Shown piece by piece: positions 8,907-16,198 of a DNA stretch of 28,738 bases. The notes under the pieces are model-generated. The model was not told where the DNA came from. It did not search any database and saw nothing but the letters and a program-made list of their open reading frames with translations. The position numbers were made by a program, and so were the translations under genes. Origin of the DNA: Pyrinomonadaceae bacterium (GTDB lineage Bacteria > Acidobacteriota > Blastocatellia > Pyrinomonadales > Pyrinomonadaceae). Every line of letters starts with the position of its first letter. Within the stretch, counting starts at the first letter, position 1. The DNA is taken from NCBI GenBank assembly GCA_050999015.1, contig JBPCPQ010000291.1:1-28738 (forward strand). The letters run 5' to 3'.

Positions 8907-9677
8907 ATGTCGAGATTGATTAAATTAACGGCGCTCGGCGTTTTGGCGCTCGTCACTTTATGGATTGTTTATGAGGTAGCGACGTTCCCGCGCGTCGCAC
9001 CCCTGCGTGATAAGAATCCTGAGACGACCGCGCTGATTGAGACCCGCATCGAAGAGGCGCGGCGTGCGGGCAGGAATCCGAGGCGCGTGCAGGGGTGGGT
9101 TCCGCTCGAAAGAATTTCCCCGCACCTGCAACGCGCGGTGCTCGCCGGCGAAGATGCGAACTTCACGACGCACAACGGTTTTGATTACGAAGCTTTACAG
9201 AAGGCGTGGGACGAGGCCGAGCGCGAAGCAGCGAAGGAGGCGAAGGAAGAAGGTGATACAGATCCGCCGAGTTGGATGGCGACGATGAACAATCTCAAGC
9301 GCGGCGCGTCAACAATCACGCAACAACTGGCAAAAAATCTCTATCTGACGACCGAACGCTCCTTCGTGCGGAAAGCGCGCGAAGCCGTCCTCACATATTT
9401 CCTCGAACGCTCGCTATCGAAGCGCCGCATCCTTGAGATTTACCTGAACGTGATCGAATGGGGAGACGGTGTTTACGGAGCGGAAGCGGCGGCGCGGACT
9501 TACTTCAACAAATCGGCGGCGCAATTGAGCGAGCGCGAAGCGGCTTTTCTGTCCGCGATGATTCCCAACCCGCGTACCGTCTTCAACCCCAAACAGAATC
9601 CCCGCCGCGTTGCCCGGCGGCAGCGAATCATCCTGCGCGGCGTGCCTTACGTGAAGCTTCCGGCAGGCACGAATTAG
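8907..9677 (+). CDS. mtgA: Monofunctional biosynthetic peptidoglycan transglycosylase
   Basis: N-terminal TM, WVPLERISPHLQRAVLAGEDANF, RGASTITQQLAKNLYL, RKAREA and RRILEIYLNVIEWGDGVYGAEAAA (GT51 motifs); no transpeptidase domain. Confidence 0.9.
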   Translation: MSRLIKLTALGVLALVTLWIVYEVATFPRVAPLRDKNPETTALIETRIEEARRAGRNPRRVQGWVPLERISPHLQRAVLAGEDANFTTHNGFDYEALQKAWDEAEREAAKEAKEEGDTDPPSWMATMNNLKRGASTITQQLAKNLYLTTERSFVRKAREAVLTYFLERSLSKRRILEIYLNVIEWGDGVYGAEAAARTYFNKSAAQLSEREAAFLSAMIPNPRTVFNPKQNPRRVARRQRIILRGVPYVKLPAGTN

Positions 9678-9816: not shown

Positions 9817-9862
9817 AAAAAAGAAAGATGCCGCCGTATATTTGGCGGCATCTTTCATTTTT
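9817..9862. terminator. Bidirectional intrinsic terminator between mtgA and the pil operon
   Basis: 13-bp stem GAAAGATGCCGCC/GGCGGCATCTTTC flanked by A6 on the left and ATTTTT on the right, between convergent genes. Confidence 0.85.
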
Positions 9863-9888: not shown

Positions 9889-10254
9889 TCAGACCGCAAA
9901 CTCCCTCGCAAGATCGAGTTCGGCTTTGCGCAACTCAAACCTGCCACGCCCGATGTTGCTCTCGGCTTTGAGCGCGAGGATGACGAAGTAATCGCGCGTG
10001 AAGAGGCGCGCGATGATCGTCATCGTGTCGAAGGTGATGACTAATTCGCGCAAACCGCCGAGGCCGATGTCGTGACCCGCGCGCTGTGCGTTGCGCACGA
10101 GCGAGGTGACTTCGGCGGCGGCAACATCCATGTTGGCGTCGCTTCCTTCGGGCAGCAAAGCCTTTTCGACGGCGATACCGTCGGTGCCCATGATAAGCGC
10201 CCCAAGCGATCCCTCGGTTCGCTCAACAATTCGTTCGAGTGCTTCTTTGAACAT
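9889..10254 (-). CDS. Roadblock/LC7 domain protein, MglC-like
   Basis: 121 aa. LERIVERTEGSLGALIMGTDGIAV and RDYFVILALKAESNIGRGRFELRK match the pattern I recall for Myxococcus MglC. Position directly downstream of pilQ is also MglC-like. Confidence 0.82.
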   Translation of the reverse strand: MFKEALERIVERTEGSLGALIMGTDGIAVEKALLPEGSDANMDVAAAEVTSLVRNAQRAGHDIGLGGLRELVITFDTMTIIARLFTRDYFVILALKAESNIGRGRFELRKAELDLAREFAV

Positions 10255-10305
10255 TATTCGTCGGTGCCTCCTCCTTCGGTCTTAGGGACTCGCGCCGGGA
10301 GTTGC

Positions 10306-12147
10306 TTAGGGACGCGCCGCCGGTTGCGAGGTCAGCGGCTGCTCGTTCGTGAACGGCACGCTTTGCAACTGCGGCGACAGCGGCTGGACGCTGGACTGCG
10401 GGGTCGGCGTCGGGGTGTTGGTTTCGGGGTTGCCGAGCGGCACCGGCTGCGGAATCGTGACGATGCGCGTGCTCGTCCCGACAGTGCCCGCCATCGGGCG
10501 TCCGTGGTAGTCGGAGCGGTAAATGCGCGGCGTGATGAAGAACAGAATTTCGTCGGTGTTGCGTGTCGTCGCACGACGCTTAAAGAGATTGCCGAGCAGC
10601 GGCACGCTGGCAAGGCCAGGCGTCCGGTTCTGCGTTTCGCCTTCGATGTCAATCAGCGAGCCGCCGATCACGGTCGTACCGCCGTCGGGCACCAGCACTT
10701 CGGTTTGCATGCGCTGCGTGTTGATGCCGGGCGTGCCGAGAGAGTTCGCAAGGTCGGTGCGGACGTTGTTGTTCTCCGCCGAGACGCGAAGCACAACCGT
10801 GCCGGCGTCCGTAATCTGCGGCGTCACGGCCAGACGGAGCGGAACGGAAACGAATGTCGTCGTGAACACCGCCGCGCCACCGCCCGCGCCCTGCGGCGTG
10901 ACGACCGGAATCTGTGTGCCGGCCTCGATTTGCGCCGTGCGGTTGTTCAGAGTGGAGACGCGCGGGCTGGCAATCGTCTTCGCCTGCCCTCTGGCTTCGC
11001 CGGCTGTAATCAACGCGCTGATCTGCGCGGTGCCGATAAGGCCGGTCGTCAGGCCGATGACGGTGTTCCGCGCGGTCGCGCCGAGCGAACCGACGGGCTG
11101 CGCCGAGTCTGCCAAACCGCCGGGGATGCCGAAGGGACTGGGGCCGCTGGTTATGTCCCCGATACCCGGCAGCGTGCTGAAAGAGCCGAGGCCGCCGCGC
11201 TGGGCGTTGATCGCCACCGCGCTGAGTTGCACGCCGAGGTCGCGACTGAAGTTGCGGCTGGCGATGACGATGCGCGTTTCAATTTCGACCTGCGGCTCGG
11301 GTTGATCGAGCAGCATCACGAGTTGGCGGATGGCATCAATGTTTTCTCGCACGTCGGTGACGATCAGCGTGTTGCTGCGCCCATCAATTTCGATGCCGCC
11401 GCGCCGTGACAAACGGCGCTTGATGATTGCGAGAATTCCCTGCTCGCTTCCTCCACCTGCCCCGCCCGAAAAACTCTGGCCCGTCGCACCTCCTGAGAAG
11501 CCGCCGCTCGAGCCGGCGACTTGTTCGAGCGTGCCGCTCGCGCGTGCGTAGTTGAGGCGAATGAATTCCGTGACGAGGGGAGAATTGTTCAGCCGCGCGT
11601 CTTTGATTGTCGCCTGCACAGCGGCCTCGCCGGCGATGACGTCGTTAGTGGCGACGCGCAGGATATTGCCGGTCACGTCAATACCCAGCCGGTTGGCTTT
11701 CAGGATCGAATCGAGCGCGATGTTCCACGGCACGCCCGTCACGTTAACCGTGACCGGAACAGCGGCGACGGATTTATCAATGACGAAGTTCACGCCGTAT
11801 TGCTCGGTGATGTAATTGAGGATGTCGCGGATGTCGGCGTTGACGACGTTGAGGTCAATTGGTTCGCCGACGAATCCGGGCTGCCCGTACTGCTGCCCCT
11901 GACTCGATTGCTGTGTGGTGTTGGCGGCGGCGGTCATCCCGCCGGGGTTTTGCGGCGGGGATGGTCGTGGCGCGGTCGGTTGTTGCGCCGGAGTCTGCAC
12001 GGGTGAGCGCGCGCCGCTTTCAGTAGCAGCCGCGCCGGAGACCCCCGCTCCGACAGCGCGGGCGGATATGGCGAGCACGCACACGAGTGAGAGGACGAGC
12101 GCGCCTCTGAGCGTGTGTGCGTGTGGGAAGTTTGAATGGAAGGTCAT
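10306..12147 (-). CDS. pilQ: Type IVa pilus secretin PilQ
   Basis: Signal peptide, N0/STN domain (GEPIDLNVVNADIRDIL...VPWNIALDSIL), N-domain (IDGRSNTLIVTD), secretin core (PQVEIETRIV, SPRVSTLNNRTAQIEAG, VLVPDGGTTVIGG, PGLASVPLLGNLFK, EILFFITPRI). Start set at ATG 12147, behind AAAGGA. Confidence 0.92.
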   Translation of the reverse strand: MTFHSNFPHAHTLRGALVLSLVCVLAISARAVGAGVSGAAATESGARSPVQTPAQQPTAPRPSPPQNPGGMTAAANTTQQSSQGQQYGQPGFVGEPIDLNVVNADIRDILNYITEQYGVNFVIDKSVAAVPVTVNVTGVPWNIALDSILKANRLGIDVTGNILRVATNDVIAGEAAVQATIKDARLNNSPLVTEFIRLNYARASGTLEQVAGSSGGFSGGATGQSFSGGAGGGSEQGILAIIKRRLSRRGGIEIDGRSNTLIVTDVRENIDAIRQLVMLLDQPEPQVEIETRIVIASRNFSRDLGVQLSAVAINAQRGGLGSFSTLPGIGDITSGPSPFGIPGGLADSAQPVGSLGATARNTVIGLTTGLIGTAQISALITAGEARGQAKTIASPRVSTLNNRTAQIEAGTQIPVVTPQGAGGGAAVFTTTFVSVPLRLAVTPQITDAGTVVLRVSAENNNVRTDLANSLGTPGINTQRMQTEVLVPDGGTTVIGGSLIDIEGETQNRTPGLASVPLLGNLFKRRATTRNTDEILFFITPRIYRSDYHGRPMAGTVGTSTRIVTIPQPVPLGNPETNTPTPTPQSSVQPLSPQLQSVPFTNEQPLTSQPAARP

Positions 12148-12408
12148 GATTTTATCCTTTAGAGATGAGCCGGCTGAAAGAGTTCGCCACGCGCTAACGC
12201 TCGTTCGGAAACTCTCGTGAGTCCTTAAAAGCGCGCGCCGCACAACGCGAAGCCGTCCGGCCATGTTGGCAAATGACTCGTGCGCGTTCGTCGGGTCGCA
12301 CTCCGGTGCGCCGAAGCGCCGCCGGCACGGCGCGCACGCTGGGAAAAACAATCCGGCGCACAGACAGGCTCAGGCTTCCGGCCCGTGCGCTCGACTCGAT
12401 TCTTGAAG

Positions 12409-13041
12409 TTATTGGTTGTCGGACACCGAAGCATTCGGCTGTTTTCGATTGCCGCCCGCTTCAGCCGAGGGTGGGTTAGGGGAGGAAGCCCGCGTCGTGG
12501 TCATCGAGTCAACGACCGCGTTGGGTTCTCGCAGAAGCTTATTTTCAACACTCACTTGACGCTTGCCGTCGCTTAATTTCGTTTCGCGGCGGAAGACGAG
12601 GCGGTTATCTTCCACCGCGACGAGGTGCCCGTCGAAGAACGGTTCGCCGGGGTAAACCACGTAGGAGAGCTTGATCGGCGTCGCCTCAACCATCGCCGCG
12701 AGTCCGCGCGGCGTGCGGAAAATTCCTGTCACCTGAACTTCGCCAATCAGCATCGCGGTGGTCGGCTTCGGCGCGGGCTGCTGCAAATTCATTGCGGCGG
12801 CTTTCTGCGCTTTGTAGCGCGCGATGCGCTCCTGAATTGAAGGCACGTCGAGCGCCGTCACCCCTTTCCGTACAACCTTTCGCCTGACCGGAGCCTTGTA
12901 TCTTACAAACGGGTCGCGCCCCGATCCCCGGTAGGAAGTGCTCGCTTCCTGCGCCGAAGCGATTGAACCCATCAGCGAGATTGCGCCGAAGGCGACGAGG
13001 CTGACAATTGTTTTACCTTTCATAAGTGTGTGGCTCTTCAT
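12409..13041 (-). CDS. pilP: PilP-like type IV pilus assembly protein
   Basis: Sits between pilO and pilQ. YRGSGRDPF motif and a C-terminal beta domain (VQVTGIFRTPRGLAAMV...YVVYPGEPFFDGHLVAVE). No lipobox Cys. Confidence 0.7.
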   Translation of the reverse strand: MKSHTLMKGKTIVSLVAFGAISLMGSIASAQEASTSYRGSGRDPFVRYKAPVRRKVVRKGVTALDVPSIQERIARYKAQKAAAMNLQQPAPKPTTAMLIGEVQVTGIFRTPRGLAAMVEATPIKLSYVVYPGEPFFDGHLVAVEDNRLVFRRETKLSDGKRQVSVENKLLREPNAVVDSMTTTRASSPNPPSAEAGGNRKQPNASVSDNQ

Positions 13042-13099
13042 ATTTCGTTCCCAGTCCGCTTCGATATGAGCGCCGATGGCGCGTTTCGAAGACAGGTTT

Positions 13100-13756
13100 T
13101 CATTTGGCTGGTGCGGGCGGTTTCGCCGCCCCGTTCGCGGGAGTCGCGGCGGGCTTCGCCGTTGCAGTCGCGGTGCTTTGAAGTTTTTCCGGTGAAACGT
13201 AATAAGCTGTTAGCAGAAACTGCGCGTCAATCGTCTTTCCGCCCCCTTGTTCTTTCACCTGCGCGACCTTGAAGTCAGTGATCGAAACAATCCGCTGGTA
13301 GGCGGCCATCTGCGCGTAGAACGCGCCAAGGTTATTGTACGTCCCCGTGACTTCGACTTCGATTGGCTTGCCAGTATAGAAGTCCTGTTGCACGTCGTCT
13401 TTCGGGGAGAAGCGGCGCACCGACAGGCGACCCCGCGCGCGCTCCTGAACGCCCTGTAGAACGGTCGTCAACTCGCGCTGTTCCGGCAACAGCGCCTTCA
13501 GGTCATCGTAGTCGGCCTGCGCCCGCTCGTAAGAGACCTTAAATTCGTTAAGGCGTTGCGAAGCGATCTGCGCGCGCGCGTTGCCCTGCCGTAGCGTCGC
13601 AACCTTTTCTTCAAGCTCGCGCGTCTCCGCCCGCGTACCGCTCGTCATGAAATACCAAAACCCTCCGTAGAGCGCGAGGGCCACGGTGCCGAAGATGACG
13701 AATTGAAGATACCAGGGTTTGTCTTGCAGGGTTTCTAATTTAAACATCGTGTGCAT
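13100..13756 (-). CDS. pilO: Type IV pilus assembly protein PilO
   Basis: TM, coiled coil, LLPEQRE motif, FYTGKPIEVEVTGTYNNLGAFYAQMAAYQRIVSI ferredoxin-like core. Confidence 0.9.
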   Translation of the reverse strand: MHTMFKLETLQDKPWYLQFVIFGTVALALYGGFWYFMTSGTRAETRELEEKVATLRQGNARAQIASQRLNEFKVSYERAQADYDDLKALLPEQRELTTVLQGVQERARGRLSVRRFSPKDDVQQDFYTGKPIEVEVTGTYNNLGAFYAQMAAYQRIVSITDFKVAQVKEQGGGKTIDAQFLLTAYYVSPEKLQSTATATAKPAATPANGAAKPPAPAK

Positions 13757-13793
13757 TCCTTAGACCGCTGACTGTAAGGTGCGTCTCCGCGTT

Positions 13794-14495
13794 CTATTTC
13801 TGAGCGACTTGGTTGGCCGGGGTAGTGGCGCTGTTTGCTTGCGGAGCGGCAGCGATGTTCGAGCCGGGCGCCGTGTATTTGCACTTGACCTTGAAACTGA
13901 CGGTTTCAGGCTTCGGCGCCGACGGGTCTATCTCGATGGTCTGCCCCTTCGAGTCGGTGGTACTGACTTCGACTGTCTGTCGCATCGTCTCGATGTTGAC
14001 GTTGGAGAAGAGGCCGGAGGAAAACTCTAAGCTGCGACCGAACTGTGTCACCGCCGATTCATTGGGCGAGTGGCCTTCGATGATTAACTCTTCGTTCTTT
14101 TGCTCGATGCCGGTGAGGCGGAAATCGCCAATCGTGGGCAGCCGTTCGTTAATCGCCGAGAGCACCGCCACGGGACCCTGCTGCGCGGCCCGCAGTTTTT
14201 TGATAACGTCAATGCGCGTCTGAATGTCTTTAATTTTCTTCTCCAGTTCAGCCTGCTCTTTGTTGACGGCCTCCATCTGCACCTTAATCTGCTCTTCACG
14301 CTTTAGCTCGTCCTGCGCCGAAGCGTGCGCGGAATTCGCGCTGATCCAGTCGAACACCATTCCGAGAAACATCAGCGTGGCGACTGTTGCCGCGAGCATA
14401 ACCATGCGCGCGCGCGGATTGGCGACGCGATCCTCGACGACGGCGGCGCTCCGCGCACGGTCGGTGACGGAATCCAGTAAGTTGACTTTAATCAT
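13794..14495 (-). CDS. pilN: Type IV pilus assembly protein PilN
   Basis: N-terminal MIKVNLL (PilM-binding INLL motif), TM, coiled coil, QQGPVAVLSAINERLP and SGLFSNV. Start abuts the pilM stop. Confidence 0.9.
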   Translation of the reverse strand: MIKVNLLDSVTDRARSAAVVEDRVANPRARMVMLAATVATLMFLGMVFDWISANSAHASAQDELKREEQIKVQMEAVNKEQAELEKKIKDIQTRIDVIKKLRAAQQGPVAVLSAINERLPTIGDFRLTGIEQKNEELIIEGHSPNESAVTQFGRSLEFSSGLFSNVNIETMRQTVEVSTTDSKGQTIEIDPSAPKPETVSFKVKCKYTAPGSNIAAAPQANSATTPANQVAQK

Positions 14496-15557
14496 TTAGC
14501 CTTCCACTCCTCTCAGCGCCAGCCCGACGGCGACGGCCATCTCCGGCACGACGTCGCGCATGTAATCCGCGTCGAACCGCTTGGCGTCAACCTTGATGCG
14601 GCGGAACGGGTCGAAAGCCTCGACCGGGATTTCAAAGCGCGCTTCGAGGTAGTGCGGTAAGCCTTTGAGCTTAGCTCCTCCGCCAGAGATGAGAATTTTT
14701 TGCACCGACGCGCTGTTTTCCTCCGCCGTCGTGCGGTAAAAGTCGAAAGTCTTTTGAATTTCCAGCGCCAGCAGATCGGACACTACTTCGAGCACCGACT
14801 CGGTGTCGAACGCCTCCGCGTTGGTAGGCACCGCCCCGCCACGCTTCACGGCTTCGGCCTGTTCGTAGGTCAGCCCCAACTCCTTCTGAAGCATCGCCGT
14901 GTACTGGTTTCCGCCGACCGACACGTCGCGCGTAAACGCGCTTCGGGTGCCGCGTAGGATGTTGATGTTCATCGTCGAAGCGCCGACGTTGAGGAGGGCG
15001 ACCGTTTCATCAGGCGAAGGCTCGTAATTAATTTCGTAGCAATTCTGGAGGGCGAACGCATCAACATCAATAATCGCCGGCTGCTTGCCCGCGAGTTGGA
15101 TCACCTGCTTGAGGCTGGCGACGAAATCGCGCTTGCACGCGGCCATCAACACGTGTAACGAATCTTGCCCGGTGCCGACGATTTGGAAATCCAGACTCAC
15201 GTCCGCAATGTCGAAAGGGATGTGCTCTTCGGCGTGCCAGTCAATTGATTCTTCAAGTTCTTCCCGGCTCATCTGCGGCACGATGATGTTTTTAACGATC
15301 ACGGAACTGCCGCTCACGCCCGCCGCCACACGGTTGGTTTTTATCTGGTGGGCGCTGAACATGCCGGCAACGACACTCGACACGTCGTTCAACTCCATGA
15401 TCTGCCCGTCAACCACTGAGTCCGGTTGCAGCGCCTCGTAGCCGAGACTCGCCAGCGAGAGATTTCCCGGCTTCCCCTGCAACTCGATTGCCTTAACGGA
15501 GCTTGAGCCGATGTCTAAACCGACAAGATTTTTTTTGCCGATGCTTTTCCTGAACAT
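14496..15557 (-). CDS. pilM: Type IV pilus assembly protein PilM (actin-like ATPase fold)
   Basis: VGLDIGSSSVKAIEL, EEHIPFDIADVSLDF, IIDVDAFALQN, ALLNVGASTMNI, ILISGGGAKL and VAVGLALRG. Confidence 0.95.
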   Translation of the reverse strand: MFRKSIGKKNLVGLDIGSSSVKAIELQGKPGNLSLASLGYEALQPDSVVDGQIMELNDVSSVVAGMFSAHQIKTNRVAAGVSGSSVIVKNIIVPQMSREELEESIDWHAEEHIPFDIADVSLDFQIVGTGQDSLHVLMAACKRDFVASLKQVIQLAGKQPAIIDVDAFALQNCYEINYEPSPDETVALLNVGASTMNINILRGTRSAFTRDVSVGGNQYTAMLQKELGLTYEQAEAVKRGGAVPTNAEAFDTESVLEVVSDLLALEIQKTFDFYRTTAEENSASVQKILISGGGAKLKGLPHYLEARFEIPVEAFDPFRRIKVDAKRFDADYMRDVVPEMAVAVGLALRGVEG

Positions 15558-15761
15558 AGATTAATGTTTCCCTGCGACCCGGAAATCTCTCCGCCGCCGG
15601 AGTTGCTTGAGACGGGCGCGAACGCGGCGCACTGTGAAGAGGAACACGGCTGAGGACAATTAGCGCGTGCTCCGAGCAGAGACGTGAATGGTAGGTACAA
15701 GAAGCGGGCGGAATGAACGCGGCTCTCAAAATTACTTCTGTATGGCACGCGGCAACCGTCT

Positions 15762-15862
15762 CCCCTTCGGCAACCCGGCTGAGTCAGGTCTCAATGTATT
15801 GCTCTGACTCCCTGTAGGTTTTGCGACCCCCGCTCACGCGAGGTGTGCCTTTATCGGTTGAG
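15762..15862 (-). ncRNA. c-di-GMP-I (GEMM-I) riboswitch aptamer in the pilM leader
   Basis: Minus-strand RNA CCGAUAAAG-GC-ACA-CCUCGC-GUGA-GCGGGG-GUC-GC-AAAACCUACAGG-GAGUCAG...CUGACUC-AGCCGGGUUGCCGAA. It has a P2 with GNRA loop, the CGCAAA junction, a P3 stem and the AGCCGGGUUGCCG 3' end, matching the GEMM-I consensus. It lies in sense orientation upstream of pilM. Confidence 0.9.
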
Positions 15863-15995
15863 TCCGAATGGCGGCTGGGGTCTTTCGTCCTGCCTTATTG
15901 CCGCCGGCTGCGATTCTCTATCACTTGATTGGGTGACGCTTGAAATGGGTGACCATTAGTAAAGGCTTCTGAGCCGCTACCGATTAGCCGAGCAG

Positions 15996-16024
15996 ACTAT
16001 AAACTACTGGGAAATCATTGTCAA
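15996..16024 (-). promoter_or_regulatory. Sigma70-type promoter for the pil operon
   Basis: Minus strand TTGACA (16024-16019), 17 nt spacer, TATAGT (16001-15996). Predicted start near 15989, giving a leader of about 430 nt that includes the riboswitch. Confidence 0.8.
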
Positions 16025-16088
16025 TCATAATTTATCAATGTTTAAATGCAATGCTATTAACAACTTAACGACAGTATAGCCCTATACT

Positions 16089-16198
16089 ATGAAACGGTTT
16101 TTGGAAACACACCAAGTGTGTTCCAGAATCATCCTTAGTAAGCGTCTTTTAGGACGCTAAGGATTCCAGTTTCGTGGTTCAAACCTACTGCGTTTCAT
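16089..16198. other. Candidate structured element (multi-stem, 110 nt)
   Basis: Closing stem ATGAAACG/CGTTTCAT (8 bp) encloses hairpins TGGAAACACAC-CAA-GTGTGTTCCA and ATCCTT..AGCGTC-TTTTAG-GACGCT-AAGGAT in AT-rich DNA. Confidence 0.45.

What the first reader, a model, noticed from the sequence alone, without database searches (positions are those of the whole stretch)
9889..16024. Cyclic-dinucleotide riboswitch at the head of a pilMNOPQ-mglC operon in an apparent acidobacterium
Seen in the sequence: a near-consensus promoter (TTGACA-17-TATAGT), a leader of about 430 nt with a full GEMM-I aptamer, then pilM-N-O-P-Q and a roadblock gene, closed by one strong terminator. Established: GEMM-I RNAs sense c-di-GMP, or 3',3'-cGAMP in Geobacter, where they precede pilus and cytochrome genes. 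Inference: synthesis of the whole pilus machine plus a polarity factor is gated directly by a second messenger at the RNA level. I am not aware of this being characterised in Acidobacteriota.
Basis: partly seen in the sequence, partly recalled or inferred. Interest (0 to 1): 0.78.

Follow-up and report, generated by a model that had tools for sequence, protein, structure and literature searches.

The report
c-di-GMP riboswitch before pilus operon
The long leader of the type IV pilus assembly operon (pilMNOPQ plus an MglC-like gene) of this soil acidobacterium carries a genuine class I cyclic-di-GMP riboswitch; it is a sound new example of a known kind of switch, and how it acts on expression is unresolved.

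Summary
Rfam's c-di-GMP-I model hits window 15766-15859 (-) at 48.5 bits (cut-off 35). It lies behind a TTGACA-17-TATAGT promoter and ahead of pilM, pilN, pilO, a PilP-fold gene, pilQ and an MglC-like roadblock gene. One strong terminator closes the operon.

The organism is a Pyrinomonadaceae MAG (Blastocatellia). The same aptamer lies upstream of pilM in 46 of 75 testable related loci, with compensatory base changes and a conserved -35 box. The pocket is G20/A47/C92, so the predicted ligand is c-di-GMP, not cGAMP.

- The operon encodes only the PilMNOPQ sub-complex, not the whole pilus machine.
- The 430-nt leader is not all non-coding. Relatives carry a conserved ~42-codon arginine-rich mini-gene that ends 1-7 nt before pilM; here a ~140-nt deletion has cut it to 32 codons.
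- I found no canonical terminator or SD-sequestering helix in the window's leader; whether the switch turns the operon on or off is open.

A GEMM-I riboswitch before pilM has been known since 2007 and is studied in Geobacter. This scan has already reported the same arrangement in other Pyrinomonadaceae windows. Verdict: new member of a known kind, modest interest.

The parts
15996..16024 (-). Sigma-70-type promoter: TTGACA (16024-16019), 17-nt spacer, TATAGT (16001-15996). The predicted transcription start is near 15989.
   Evidence: 11 of 12 matches; a perfect TTGACA with a -10-like hexamer 16-18 nt on lies 43-144 nt upstream of the aptamer in all 47 aptamer-bearing loci.
15860..15989 (-). 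5' leader ahead of the aptamer, about 130 nt. CUC at 15862-15860 is the 5' strand of an extended P1 helix.
   Evidence: sequence; the flanking triplets covary across lineages (CUC/GAG, GUC/GAC, GACAC/GUGUC, GGAGC/GCUUC, GAAGUC/GACUUC, AAACU/AGUUU); no other Rfam family in 15500-16100.
15766..15859 (-). c-di-GMP-I (GEMM-I) aptamer. The G20 equivalent is at 15849, A47 at 15822, C92 at 15770. The P2 tetraloop is GUGA (GYRA type, so no tetraloop receptor is expected).
   Evidence: RF01051, 48.5 bits against a cut-off of 35; 71.5 bits with my own model R1; 98.9% of cells paired, 10 pairs with compensatory changes, 0 of 500 shuffles as good. Pocket positions follow PMC6140456; the tetraloop rule follows PMC1950547.
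15558..15765 (-). Expression platform, 208 nt. GAG at 15762-15760 is the 3' strand of the P1 extension. A pyrimidine-rich tract lies at about 15718-15690. The composition is C-rich and G-poor. No canonical intrinsic terminator was found.
   Evidence: no terminator. C exceeds G in all 47 platforms (means 34% and 24%); the local folds are not better than shuffles (z -0.6 and -0.7); about 140 nt shorter than in the nearest relatives.
15561..15659 (-). Remnant of a conserved arginine-rich mini-ORF: at most 32 codons from a TTG start. The core VRRVRARLKQLRRRR is kept. The TAA stop lies 3 nt before the pilM ATG.
   Evidence: a ~42-codon ORF (MK...SRARKARARLRQQHR...RNK) in 68 of 77 related loci; coding signature; the native start was lost here by deletion.
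14496..15557 (-). pilM, the actin-like cytoplasmic pilus assembly protein.
   Evidence: PF11104 at 243 bits; TIGR01175 at 252 bits against a cut-off of 133.
13794..14495 (-). pilN. It abuts the pilM stop codon.
   Evidence: PF05137 at 30 bits against a cut-off of 22.8. The gene is syntenic in all related loci.
13100..13756 (-). pilO.
   Evidence: PF04350 at 96.7 bits.
12409..13041 (-). PilP-like protein. It has a signal peptide without a lipobox cysteine, an RDPF motif, and a C-terminal beta domain.
   Evidence: no sequence-family or PDB sequence hit; model pLDDT 78.6, core above 90; the ten best Foldseek matches are all PilP (2y4x, 3jc8_P, 2lc4, 2ivw, 4av2), probability 1.0, TM to target 0.46-0.77.
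10306..12351 (-). pilQ secretin.
   Evidence: PF00263 at 141 bits; TIGR02515 at 314 bits against a cut-off of 284.
9889..10254 (-). MglC-like roadblock/LC7 protein, 121 aa. It is the last gene of the operon.
   Evidence: PF03259 at 25.7 bits against a cut-off of 23. M. xanthus MglC (7ct3), E 1.2e-15 over residues 2-110; found directly after pilQ in 50 of 54 testable related loci.
9823..9856 (-). Intrinsic terminator: 13-pair stem followed by TTTTTT. It is shared with the convergent gene at 8907-9677 (+).

Best explanation
This is a genuine class I c-di-GMP riboswitch (GEMM-I; pocket G20/A47/C92; GYRA-loop type). It is transcribed from a conserved sigma-70-type promoter. It sits about 130 nt into the roughly 430-nt leader of one operon: pilM, pilN, pilO, a pilP-like gene, pilQ and an mglC-like gene, in a Pyrinomonadaceae bacterium.

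Shown: the aptamer, its covariation, the promoter, the gene identities, and conservation of the arrangement within the family.

Inferred mechanism:
- c-di-GMP binding locks P1 together with a covarying 3-7 bp P1 extension.
- The 3' strand of that extension (GGGGAGAC, 15765-15758) is otherwise free to pair with pyrimidine-rich leader sequence downstream.
- That choice decides whether transcription or translation continues through a C-rich, G-poor 208-nt spacer and the stub of an arginine-rich mini-ORF into pilM.
- The route is not a canonical intrinsic terminator, nor direct masking of the pilM Shine-Dalgarno. My guess is Rho-dependent or attenuator-type control of elongation.

Direction is open. 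I put about 45% on ON (c-di-GMP promotes pilus assembly genes, as in the two characterised pilus-linked riboswitches). I put about 35% on OFF and the rest on other outcomes.
For: Aptamer:
- RF01051 at 48.5 bits against a cut-off of 35, full length.
- G at the position-20 equivalent, A at 47, C at 92.
- Per PMC6140456, G20 and C92 read the two guanines, and cGAMP switches carry A at position 20.

Conservation:
- The aptamer lies on the pilM strand 242-360 nt upstream of pilM in 46 of 75 testable related loci.
- By PilM identity to the window: 34 of 34 loci at 70% or more, 12 of 34 at 65-70%, 0 of 7 below 65%.

Structure:
- 98.9% of cells pair and 10 pairs show compensatory changes. None of 500 shuffles and none of the slid controls come close.
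- The P1 extension covaries across lineages.

Promoter and operon:
- TTGACA is conserved in all 47 loci.
- Intergenic gaps are 0-58 nt, with a single strong terminator after the last gene.

Signalling capacity: at least 8 full GGDEF genes in this assembly.

Platform:
- C exceeds G in all 47 platforms.
- In some relatives a stable hairpin starts at platform nt 1 and overlaps the 3' strand of the P1 extension (L016 z -4.2, L027 z -2.6).

Precedent:
- The Geobacter pilM GEMM-Ib riboswitch is an ON switch (PMC9262584).
- The C. difficile pilA1 c-di-GMP-II riboswitch is an ON switch (PMC6366702).
Against: - Nothing here shows ligand binding or regulation.
- In the window itself the platform folds no better than shuffled sequence (z +1.6 for the first 95 nt).
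- No terminator-like site was found in the platform.
- Complementarity between the P1 3' strand and downstream sequence is not above composition-matched shuffles across the 47 loci (mean z -0.2).
- Forcing or blocking the aptamer in silico barely changes the predicted accessibility of the pilM SD and AUG. That call's small-ORF site coordinates were mis-set and are not used.
- The window's leader has lost about 140 nt compared with its nearest relatives, so this copy could be impaired.
- 29 related loci run the same operon without any riboswitch, so the switch is dispensable for the operon.
Confidence: 0.85

Rival explanations
1. The aptamer senses 3',3'-cGAMP (GEMM-Ib) or both dinucleotides, as the Geobacter pilM riboswitch does.
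For: The gene context matches the Geobacter cGAMP switch (PMC9262584). The aptamer has a GYRA loop and a long P3 without a receptor, as many deltaproteobacterial examples do.
Against: The discriminator position is G (15849) here, and in nearly all of the other 46 pilM-linked aptamers. According to PMC6140456, cGAMP riboswitches have A there, and wild-type G20 RNA discriminates against cGAMP (Kd 10 uM against picomolar for c-di-GMP).
Confidence: 0.05
2. c-di-GMP turns the operon OFF. With P1 locked, the pyrimidine-rich, C-rich leader is left single-stranded and loads Rho (or pairs elsewhere). Transcription then stops before pilM.
For: The platform is C-rich and G-poor in all 47 loci, and there is no canonical terminator. 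More than 100 nt of untranslated RNA lies between the aptamer and the first ORF. From established knowledge, ligand-exposed rut sites are known for the ribB and mgtA riboswitches. An OFF switch would also fit the common pattern of high c-di-GMP going with low motility.
Against: Composition is only a hint, and no rut site or Rho dependence was tested. Both characterised pilus-linked cyclic-dinucleotide riboswitches are ON switches (PMC9262584, PMC6366702). In groups A and C of the relatives, the hairpin that competes with the P1 extension ends in a short U-run. That reads more like an attenuator relieved by ligand.
Confidence: 0.3
3. In this particular genome the riboswitch is a relic. The aptamer is still intact, but the roughly 140-nt deletion has uncoupled it from expression, so the operon is effectively constitutive from the strong promoter.
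For: The platform is 208 nt, against 337-355 nt in the nearest relatives. The deletion removed the mini-ORF start and about 20 codons. The post-aptamer hairpin that is stable in relatives is not stable here. Three relatives have visibly decayed aptamers (L040, L053, L050 at 27-44 bits). 29 loci lack the aptamer altogether.
Against: The aptamer scores as well as those of relatives (71.5 bits against a range of 55-77). All pocket and helix positions are intact, as are the P1 extension and the promoter.
Confidence: 0.12
4. The primary regulated target is the arginine-rich mini-protein, and the pil genes follow only by translational coupling. The peptide itself would be part of the device, for example as an RNA-binding arginine-rich motif or a ribosome-slowing leader.
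For: The mini-ORF is the first ORF after the aptamer in relatives. Its stop lies 1-7 nt before, or overlaps, the pilM ATG, and the pilM SD lies inside it. Its amino-acid sequence is under selection: 16847 synonymous against 16998 non-synonymous codon differences in frame, against 2332/30354 and 1478/31040 in the other two frames.
Against: The mini-ORF is just as conserved in 22 loci that have no riboswitch, so it does not depend on the switch. In the window it is truncated. It has no known family.
Confidence: 0.15

Closest known systems
Geobacter pilM riboswitch (GEMM-Ib; G. metallireducens and G. sulfurreducens)
   Same: It is a GEMM-I-fold aptamer in the leader of pilM and the following pilus assembly genes. 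Aptamer formation competes with a downstream structure (PMC9262584). GEMM before pilM, pilO and pilQ was already tabulated in 2007 (PMC1950547).
   Different: The Geobacter RNA has A at position 20 and senses 3',3'-cGAMP. It uses a compact intrinsic terminator within about 110 nt. Here position 20 is G and the platform is 208 nt (242-360 nt in relatives) without a canonical terminator. A mini-ORF lies in between, and the phylum is different.
Vc2 c-di-GMP-I riboswitch of Vibrio cholerae (Rfam RF01051 prototype)
   Same: Same three-helix fold and the same ligand-contact nucleotides, G20, A47 and C92 (PMC6140456).
   Different: Vc2 has a GAAA tetraloop docking into a receptor in P3. This RNA is the GYRA type without a receptor (PMC1950547). 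Gene context and platform also differ.
Cdi-2-4, the c-di-GMP-II riboswitch upstream of pilA1 in Clostridioides difficile
   Same: c-di-GMP acts through an RNA leader on type IV pilus genes, and it is an ON switch (PMC6366702).
   Different: It belongs to an unrelated aptamer class (class II). It controls the pilin gene by a terminator, in a Gram-positive host.
Myxococcus xanthus MglC (MXAN_5770; PDB 7ct3)
   Same: The last gene of the operon aligns with MglC end to end (E 1.2e-15). It is an 'orphan' roadblock gene, not next to mglA, as defined for the MglB_orphan1 group (PMC4719450).
   Different: Of the three surface residues tested in MglC, F25 is T here, while D26 and I28 are kept. MglA and MglB were not found in this incomplete assembly. 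No function has been tested outside myxobacteria.

Membership tests
c-di-GMP-I riboswitch (GEMM-I, Rfam RF01051) | Covariance-model score at or above the curated gathering score, over the full model | tested here: met
   48.5 bits against 35, model positions 1-87.
c-di-GMP-I riboswitch (GEMM-I, Rfam RF01051) | P1/P2/P3 helices supported by covariation | tested here: met
   47 pilM-linked aptamers: 98.9% of cells paired, 10 pairs with changes on both sides, 0 of 500 shuffles as good, slid controls 25-43% paired. The alignment was fitted to the model, so it leans towards the structure.
c-di-GMP-I riboswitch (GEMM-I, Rfam RF01051) | Ligand-contact nucleotides G20, A47 and C92 (Vc2 numbering) | tested here: met
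   G at 15849, A at 15822, C at 15770, by alignment to the Rfam consensus. Roles follow PMC6140456.
c-di-GMP-I riboswitch (GEMM-I, Rfam RF01051) | GNRA tetraloop on P2, with a receptor in P3 only when the loop is GAAA | tested here: met
   The loop is GUGA. All 47 relatives have GCGA or GUGA. No receptor is expected for GYRA loops (PMC1950547).
c-di-GMP-I riboswitch (GEMM-I, Rfam RF01051) | Binds c-di-GMP | not testable with these tools
   Needs in-line probing, ITC or a reporter assay.
c-di-GMP-I riboswitch (GEMM-I, Rfam RF01051) | Expression platform with a ligand-dependent alternative structure | tested here: inconclusive
   The P1 extension covaries, and in some relatives a stable hairpin overlaps it. 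In the window there is no terminator. The anti-P1 pairing is not above shuffles, and the folds are not better than shuffles.
GEMM-Ib 3',3'-cGAMP riboswitch | Adenine at the position equivalent to Vc2 G20 | tested here: not met
   G at 15849. Rule from PMC6140456.
c-di-GMP-I-GGC variant (Rfam RF03167) | Score at or above the gathering score, and G at the position-47 equivalent | tested here: not met
   48.6 bits against a cut-off of 59. The window reads CGCAAAA where the variant consensus reads CGCGAA.
Type IVa pilus PilMNOPQ assembly/secretin sub-complex | PilM, PilN, PilO and PilQ family membership, in that gene order | tested here: met
   TIGR01175 252 bits against 133; PF05137 30 against 22.8; PF04350 96.7 against 22; TIGR02515 314 against 284.
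Type IVa pilus PilMNOPQ assembly/secretin sub-complex | PilP between PilO and PilQ | tested here: met
   Met by fold only. The ten best PDB matches of the model are all PilP. There is no Pfam, NCBIfam or PDB sequence hit. Unlike the Pseudomonas PilP, which its PDB entry titles a lipoprotein, it has no lipobox cysteine.
MglC (MglB_orphan1 roadblock proteins) | Roadblock/LC7 domain that is closer to MglC than to MglB | tested here: met
   PF03259 at 25.7 bits against 23. 7ct3 MglC matches at E 1.2e-15 and no MglB chain matches at E up to 10.
MglC (MglB_orphan1 roadblock proteins) | The genome also encodes a group 1 MglA and a coupled MglB (PMC4719450) | tested here: inconclusive
   Not found in this 69%-complete assembly. 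In relative G008 that gene is MglB-like and lies next to a Ras/Arf-like GTPase gene.
MglC (MglB_orphan1 roadblock proteins) | F25/D26/I28 surface used for partner binding; interaction with MglB and RomR | tested here: inconclusive
   In the alignment D and I are kept and F is T. The interactions cannot be tested here.

The most novel reading that the evidence does not exclude
The conserved arginine-rich mini-protein encoded between the riboswitch and pilM is a working part of pilus-operon control in Pyrinomonadaceae. In relatives it is about 42 aa, with an SRARKARARLRQQHR core, and it is translationally coupled to pilM. It could act as an RNA-binding arginine-rich-motif peptide, or as a polybasic leader whose translation sets Rho access and pilM initiation. 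In that case the c-di-GMP aptamer, the C-rich spacer and the mini-ORF would together form a composite expression platform of a kind not described for riboswitches.
Probability: 0.12. Interest if true: 0.6.

Novelty: new member of a known kind. Interest (0 to 1): 0.3.

Why it matters
It extends RNA-level c-di-GMP control of type IV pilus assembly genes to a poorly studied, abundant soil phylum. It predicts the ligand and gives a family-wide alignment of 47 aptamers with a covarying extended P1. It also marks out two open points that bench work could settle. One is a long, C-rich platform with no canonical terminator. The other is an unannotated arginine-rich mini-gene fused by position to pilM. 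The co-transcribed MglC-like gene hints that pilus assembly and a Myxococcus-type polarity factor are expressed together outside the myxobacteria. None of this changes what is known about how this riboswitch class works.

Tried and rejected
- Anti-aptamer helix. I computed the best duplex between the P1 3' strand plus 11 nt and the next 150 nt in all 47 loci. It is no better than shuffled targets (mean z -0.2; 3 of 47 below -2).
The GGUUGCCG repeat and the GCAACUCCGGC segment are in the window. The repeat is not seen in relatives' platforms, and the segment lies inside the mini-ORF coding region.
- Intrinsic terminator scans. There is none in the window's platform. Only scattered hairpin-plus-U sites appear in some relatives. 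A search for the most stable closed hairpin simply returned the longest substrings.
- Constrained folding of the whole leader, with the aptamer forced or P1 blocked. It gave no clear change at the pilM SD or AUG. My coordinates for the small-ORF sites in that script were wrong, so those rows are void.
- RNA evidence. No raw-read RNA run was available. Of the four runs laid, two are flagged 'probably DNA' and one is only guessed to be RNA. The one run on record as a metatranscriptome gave contigs at 90-95% identity, that is, from relatives. These cover pilM up to 15637, plus pieces of about 45 nt over the aptamer. This says nothing firm about a start site or about read-through.
- Complex prediction of PilM with the mini-protein: no answer.
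- Mini-protein families: no significant Pfam hit. 59 database homologues were found; every one that carries a source name is called 'hypothetical protein', and those with an organism name are from Pyrinomonadaceae.
- Other RNA families upstream of pilM in 9 riboswitch-less loci: none.
- pilM linkage elsewhere in the phylum. 22 of 151 Acidobacteriota genomes have RF01051. Of the 56 riboswitch loci I could inspect, only 3 have pilM beside them, and all 3 are from this family.

Full report
**What is there**

On the minus strand, the Rfam c-di-GMP-I model (RF01051) matches window 15766-15859 over its full length. The score is 48.5 bits against a gathering score of 35. In a permissive scan of 15500-16100 no family outside the c-di-GMP-I clan matches. 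The best clan member there is the GGC variant model RF03167. It scores the same 48.6 bits but fails its own cut-off of 59, and the window has A, not G, at the variant-defining position.

A TTGACA-17-TATAGT promoter lies at 16024-15996, with 11 of 12 matches. A start near 15989 gives a leader of about 432 nt before the pilM ATG at 15557.

Downstream, with gaps of 0-58 nt, lie six genes:
- pilM (TIGR01175, 252 bits)
- pilN (PF05137)
- pilO (PF04350)
- a 210-aa secreted protein
- pilQ (TIGR02515, 314 bits)
- a 121-aa roadblock/LC7 protein

A 13-pair hairpin with a T6 tail at 9856-9823 ends the operon. It also serves the convergent transglycosylase gene.

**The two uncertain gene labels**

The 210-aa protein has no Pfam, NCBIfam or PDB sequence match. 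I built an alignment of 32 syntenic homologues and obtained an AlphaFold model with pLDDT 78.6 and a core above 90. Its ten best PDB matches are all PilP from Pseudomonas, Neisseria and Myxococcus, at probability 1.0. So 'pilP' is right by fold. The protein has an ordinary signal peptide and no lipobox cysteine.

The roadblock protein aligns end to end with M. xanthus MglC (7ct3, E 1.2e-15), and no MglB chain matches. Of the three MglC surface residues studied by McLoon et al. (PMC4719450), D26 and I28 are kept and F25 is T.

This 69%-complete assembly has no second roadblock gene and no MglA-like GTPase. All 25 family relatives searched do have a stronger second roadblock gene (that tally includes one unpublished genome, G017, and nothing rests on it alone). 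In relative G008 that gene is MglB-like and sits beside a Ras/Arf-like GTPase gene. A polarity module is therefore plausible for the family but is not shown for this genome.

None of the other window ORFs that I scanned against Pfam is a pilus gene. The operon is the PilMNOPQ sub-complex, not the whole machine.

**Organism and conservation**

The 80 closest PilM loci in the species-representative genome collection are almost all labelled Pyrinomonadaceae or Blastocatellia MAGs. I built a covariance model from 29 family aptamers. It finds an aptamer on the pilM strand in 46 of those loci, always 242-360 nt before pilM.

Counting only the 75 loci with at least 500 nt of upstream sequence, and sorting by PilM identity to the window:
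- 70% or more: 34 of 34 have the aptamer
- 65-70%: 12 of 34
- below 65%: 0 of 7

Nine riboswitch-less loci have no Rfam element of any kind upstream of pilM.

The 47 aptamers pair in 98.9% of cells and have 10 pairs with compensatory changes. They beat all 500 shuffles and all slid controls.

Every one of the 47 loci has a perfect TTGACA with a -10-like hexamer, 43-144 nt upstream of the aptamer.

Across the phylum, 22 of 151 sampled genomes carry RF01051. Among the 56 riboswitch loci I could inspect, pilM was adjacent only in three, all from this family.

The genome has a second c-di-GMP-I riboswitch on another contig and at least eight full GGDEF genes. c-di-GMP signalling is therefore present.

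**Ligand**

By alignment to the Rfam consensus, the Vc2 G20 equivalent is G (15849), A47 is A (15822) and C92 is C (15770). Per PMC6140456:
- G20 and C92 read the two guanines of c-di-GMP.
- cGAMP riboswitches replace G20 by A.
- Wild-type G20 RNA discriminates strongly against cGAMP.

The P2 loop is GUGA. GYRA loops go without a tetraloop receptor (PMC1950547), which explains the low-confidence P3 alignment. I therefore predict c-di-GMP and give cGAMP about 5%.

**The leader is not all non-coding**

In relatives, an ORF of about 42 codons lies between the aptamer and pilM. Its consensus is MK-x(12-15)-SRARKARARLRQQHR-x(8)-RNK. It ends 1-7 nt before the pilM ATG, or overlaps it, and the pilM Shine-Dalgarno lies inside it.

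It is present in 68 of 77 testable loci, including 22 of the 29 testable loci that have no riboswitch.

It is coding:
- Entropy at codon position 3 is 1.76 bits, against 0.83 and 0.74 at positions 1 and 2.
- Synonymous codon differences equal non-synonymous ones in frame (16847 against 16998).
- In the other two frames they are 7-20 times rarer.

It has no significant Pfam match. I found 59 homologues in the 5.8-billion-protein set. Every one that carries a source name is called 'hypothetical protein', and those with an organism name are from Pyrinomonadaceae.

In the window the platform is only 208 nt, against 337-355 nt in the nearest relatives. Alignment shows a net loss of about 140 nt that removed the ORF's start and about 20 codons. 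What remains is a 32-codon frame (15659-15561, TTG start) with the arginine core intact.

**How it might work**

One clearly conserved feature lies beyond the Rfam model. It is an extension of P1, separated from the inner two pairs by an internal loop. It covaries across lineages: CUC/GAG (the window), GUC/GAC, GACAC/GUGUC, GGAGC/GCUUC, GAAGUC/GACUUC and AAACU/AGUUU.

Its 3' strand lies within the first 8 nt of the platform. In two lineages of relatives a stable hairpin starts at platform nt 1 and so competes with the extension (L016 -35.7 kcal/mol, z -4.2; L027 z -2.6). That hairpin is followed by a pyrimidine-rich tract with a short U-run. This reads like an attenuator that ligand binding would relieve, that is, an ON switch, as in Geobacter pilM (PMC9262584) and C. 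difficile pilA1 (PMC6366702).

The evidence is weak on several counts:
- The U-tracts are poor, and a third lineage has none.
- In the window the equivalent hairpin is no better than shuffled sequence.
- No terminator is detected there.
- A general anti-P1 pairing is not above composition-matched shuffles.

What all 47 platforms share is C greater than G (34% against 24%, whereas pilM coding sequence has C equal to or below G). They also share a long untranslated stretch before the first ORF. That is compatible with Rho-dependent control, which would more naturally give an OFF switch.

I commit to 'regulates elongation into the mini-ORF/pilM by a non-canonical route'. My odds are ON about 45%, OFF about 35%, and impaired in this genome about 12%.

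**Comparison with what is known, and novelty**

GEMM upstream of pilM, pilO and pilQ was tabulated when the motif was first described (PMC1950547). The Geobacter pilM riboswitch is a kinetic and NMR model system (PMC9262584).

The differences here are:
- the phylum
- G20, hence c-di-GMP
- the GYRA-type aptamer
- the long, C-rich platform without a canonical terminator
- the mini-ORF
- the co-transcribed MglC-like gene

A full-text search found only three papers that mention Acidobacteria, riboswitch and c-di-GMP together, and none is about this.

This scan has already reported the same arrangement in other Pyrinomonadaceae windows, two of them with the arginine-rich mini-gene and one with the C-rich spacer, and in soil gammaproteobacteria. 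My results were reached before I read those notes and agree with them.

Verdict: observation confirmed, interpretation partly supported, a new member of a known kind, interest about 0.3.

Noticed in passing
window 15561-15659 (-); for example L056:6873-7001, L035:6869-6997, L071:6863-6997: A conserved arginine-rich mini-gene of about 42 codons lies directly upstream of pilM and is translationally coupled to it. It is found in 68 of 77 related loci, with or without the riboswitch. It has no known family, and where it is annotated at all it is called 'hypothetical protein'.
   Followed up: yes
window about 15640-15700 (-), compared with L003, L004 and L005: The window's leader is about 140 nt shorter than in its nearest relatives. 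The deletion removed the mini-ORF start and its N-terminal half, and weakened the post-aptamer hairpin.
   Followed up: partly
L001:611-720 (+) (own genome, contig C490) and L001:1155-1886: A second c-di-GMP-I riboswitch in the same genome (60 bits) lies about 430 nt upstream of a 243-aa secreted protein with no family. The same protein follows same-type riboswitches in at least four relatives (L091, L107, L111, L093; 52-59% identity).
   Followed up: partly
Relatives: for example G019:C24:671747-672130, G011:C92:292-844, G013:C98:2936-3459, G012:C76:15035-15655: Many Pyrinomonadaceae genomes carry pairs of c-di-GMP-I aptamers on one strand, with starts about 280-540 nt apart. There are up to 6 aptamers per genome, and up to 10 in another acidobacterial family. 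I did not look at what they control.
   Followed up: no
L105:1501-1591 (-) (relative G014): One family aptamer reads A instead of G at the position-20 equivalent in the alignment (AAAAGC instead of AAAGGC). That is the signature of cGAMP-sensing or dual-specificity variants.
   Followed up: no
16 nt upstream of the aptamer in relatives; window 15875-15860: A UUUGAAAC/UUUGAAAG motif directly 5' of the aptamer is conserved in most relatives, beyond what the P1 extension needs. The window reads AUUCGGAC instead.
   Followed up: no
L115:1447-1926 and L115:1998-2582 (relative G008): Relatives carry an MglB-like gene (NF052242, 79 bits, below the equivalog cut-off) next to a Ras/Arf-like small GTPase gene. 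This is a candidate MglAB pair to go with the MglC-like gene of the pil operon. Neither was found in the window's own incomplete assembly.
   Followed up: partly
L073, L075-L082 (PilM about 62% identical): The most distant pilMNOPQ loci retrieved lack the riboswitch and the mini-ORF. The four that extend beyond pilQ also lack the MglC-like gene. The three features therefore share a distribution at the deep end of the family.
   Followed up: partly
window 9823-9856: The operon terminator is a perfect bidirectional hairpin shared with the convergent monofunctional transglycosylase gene (8907-9677, +).
   Followed up: no
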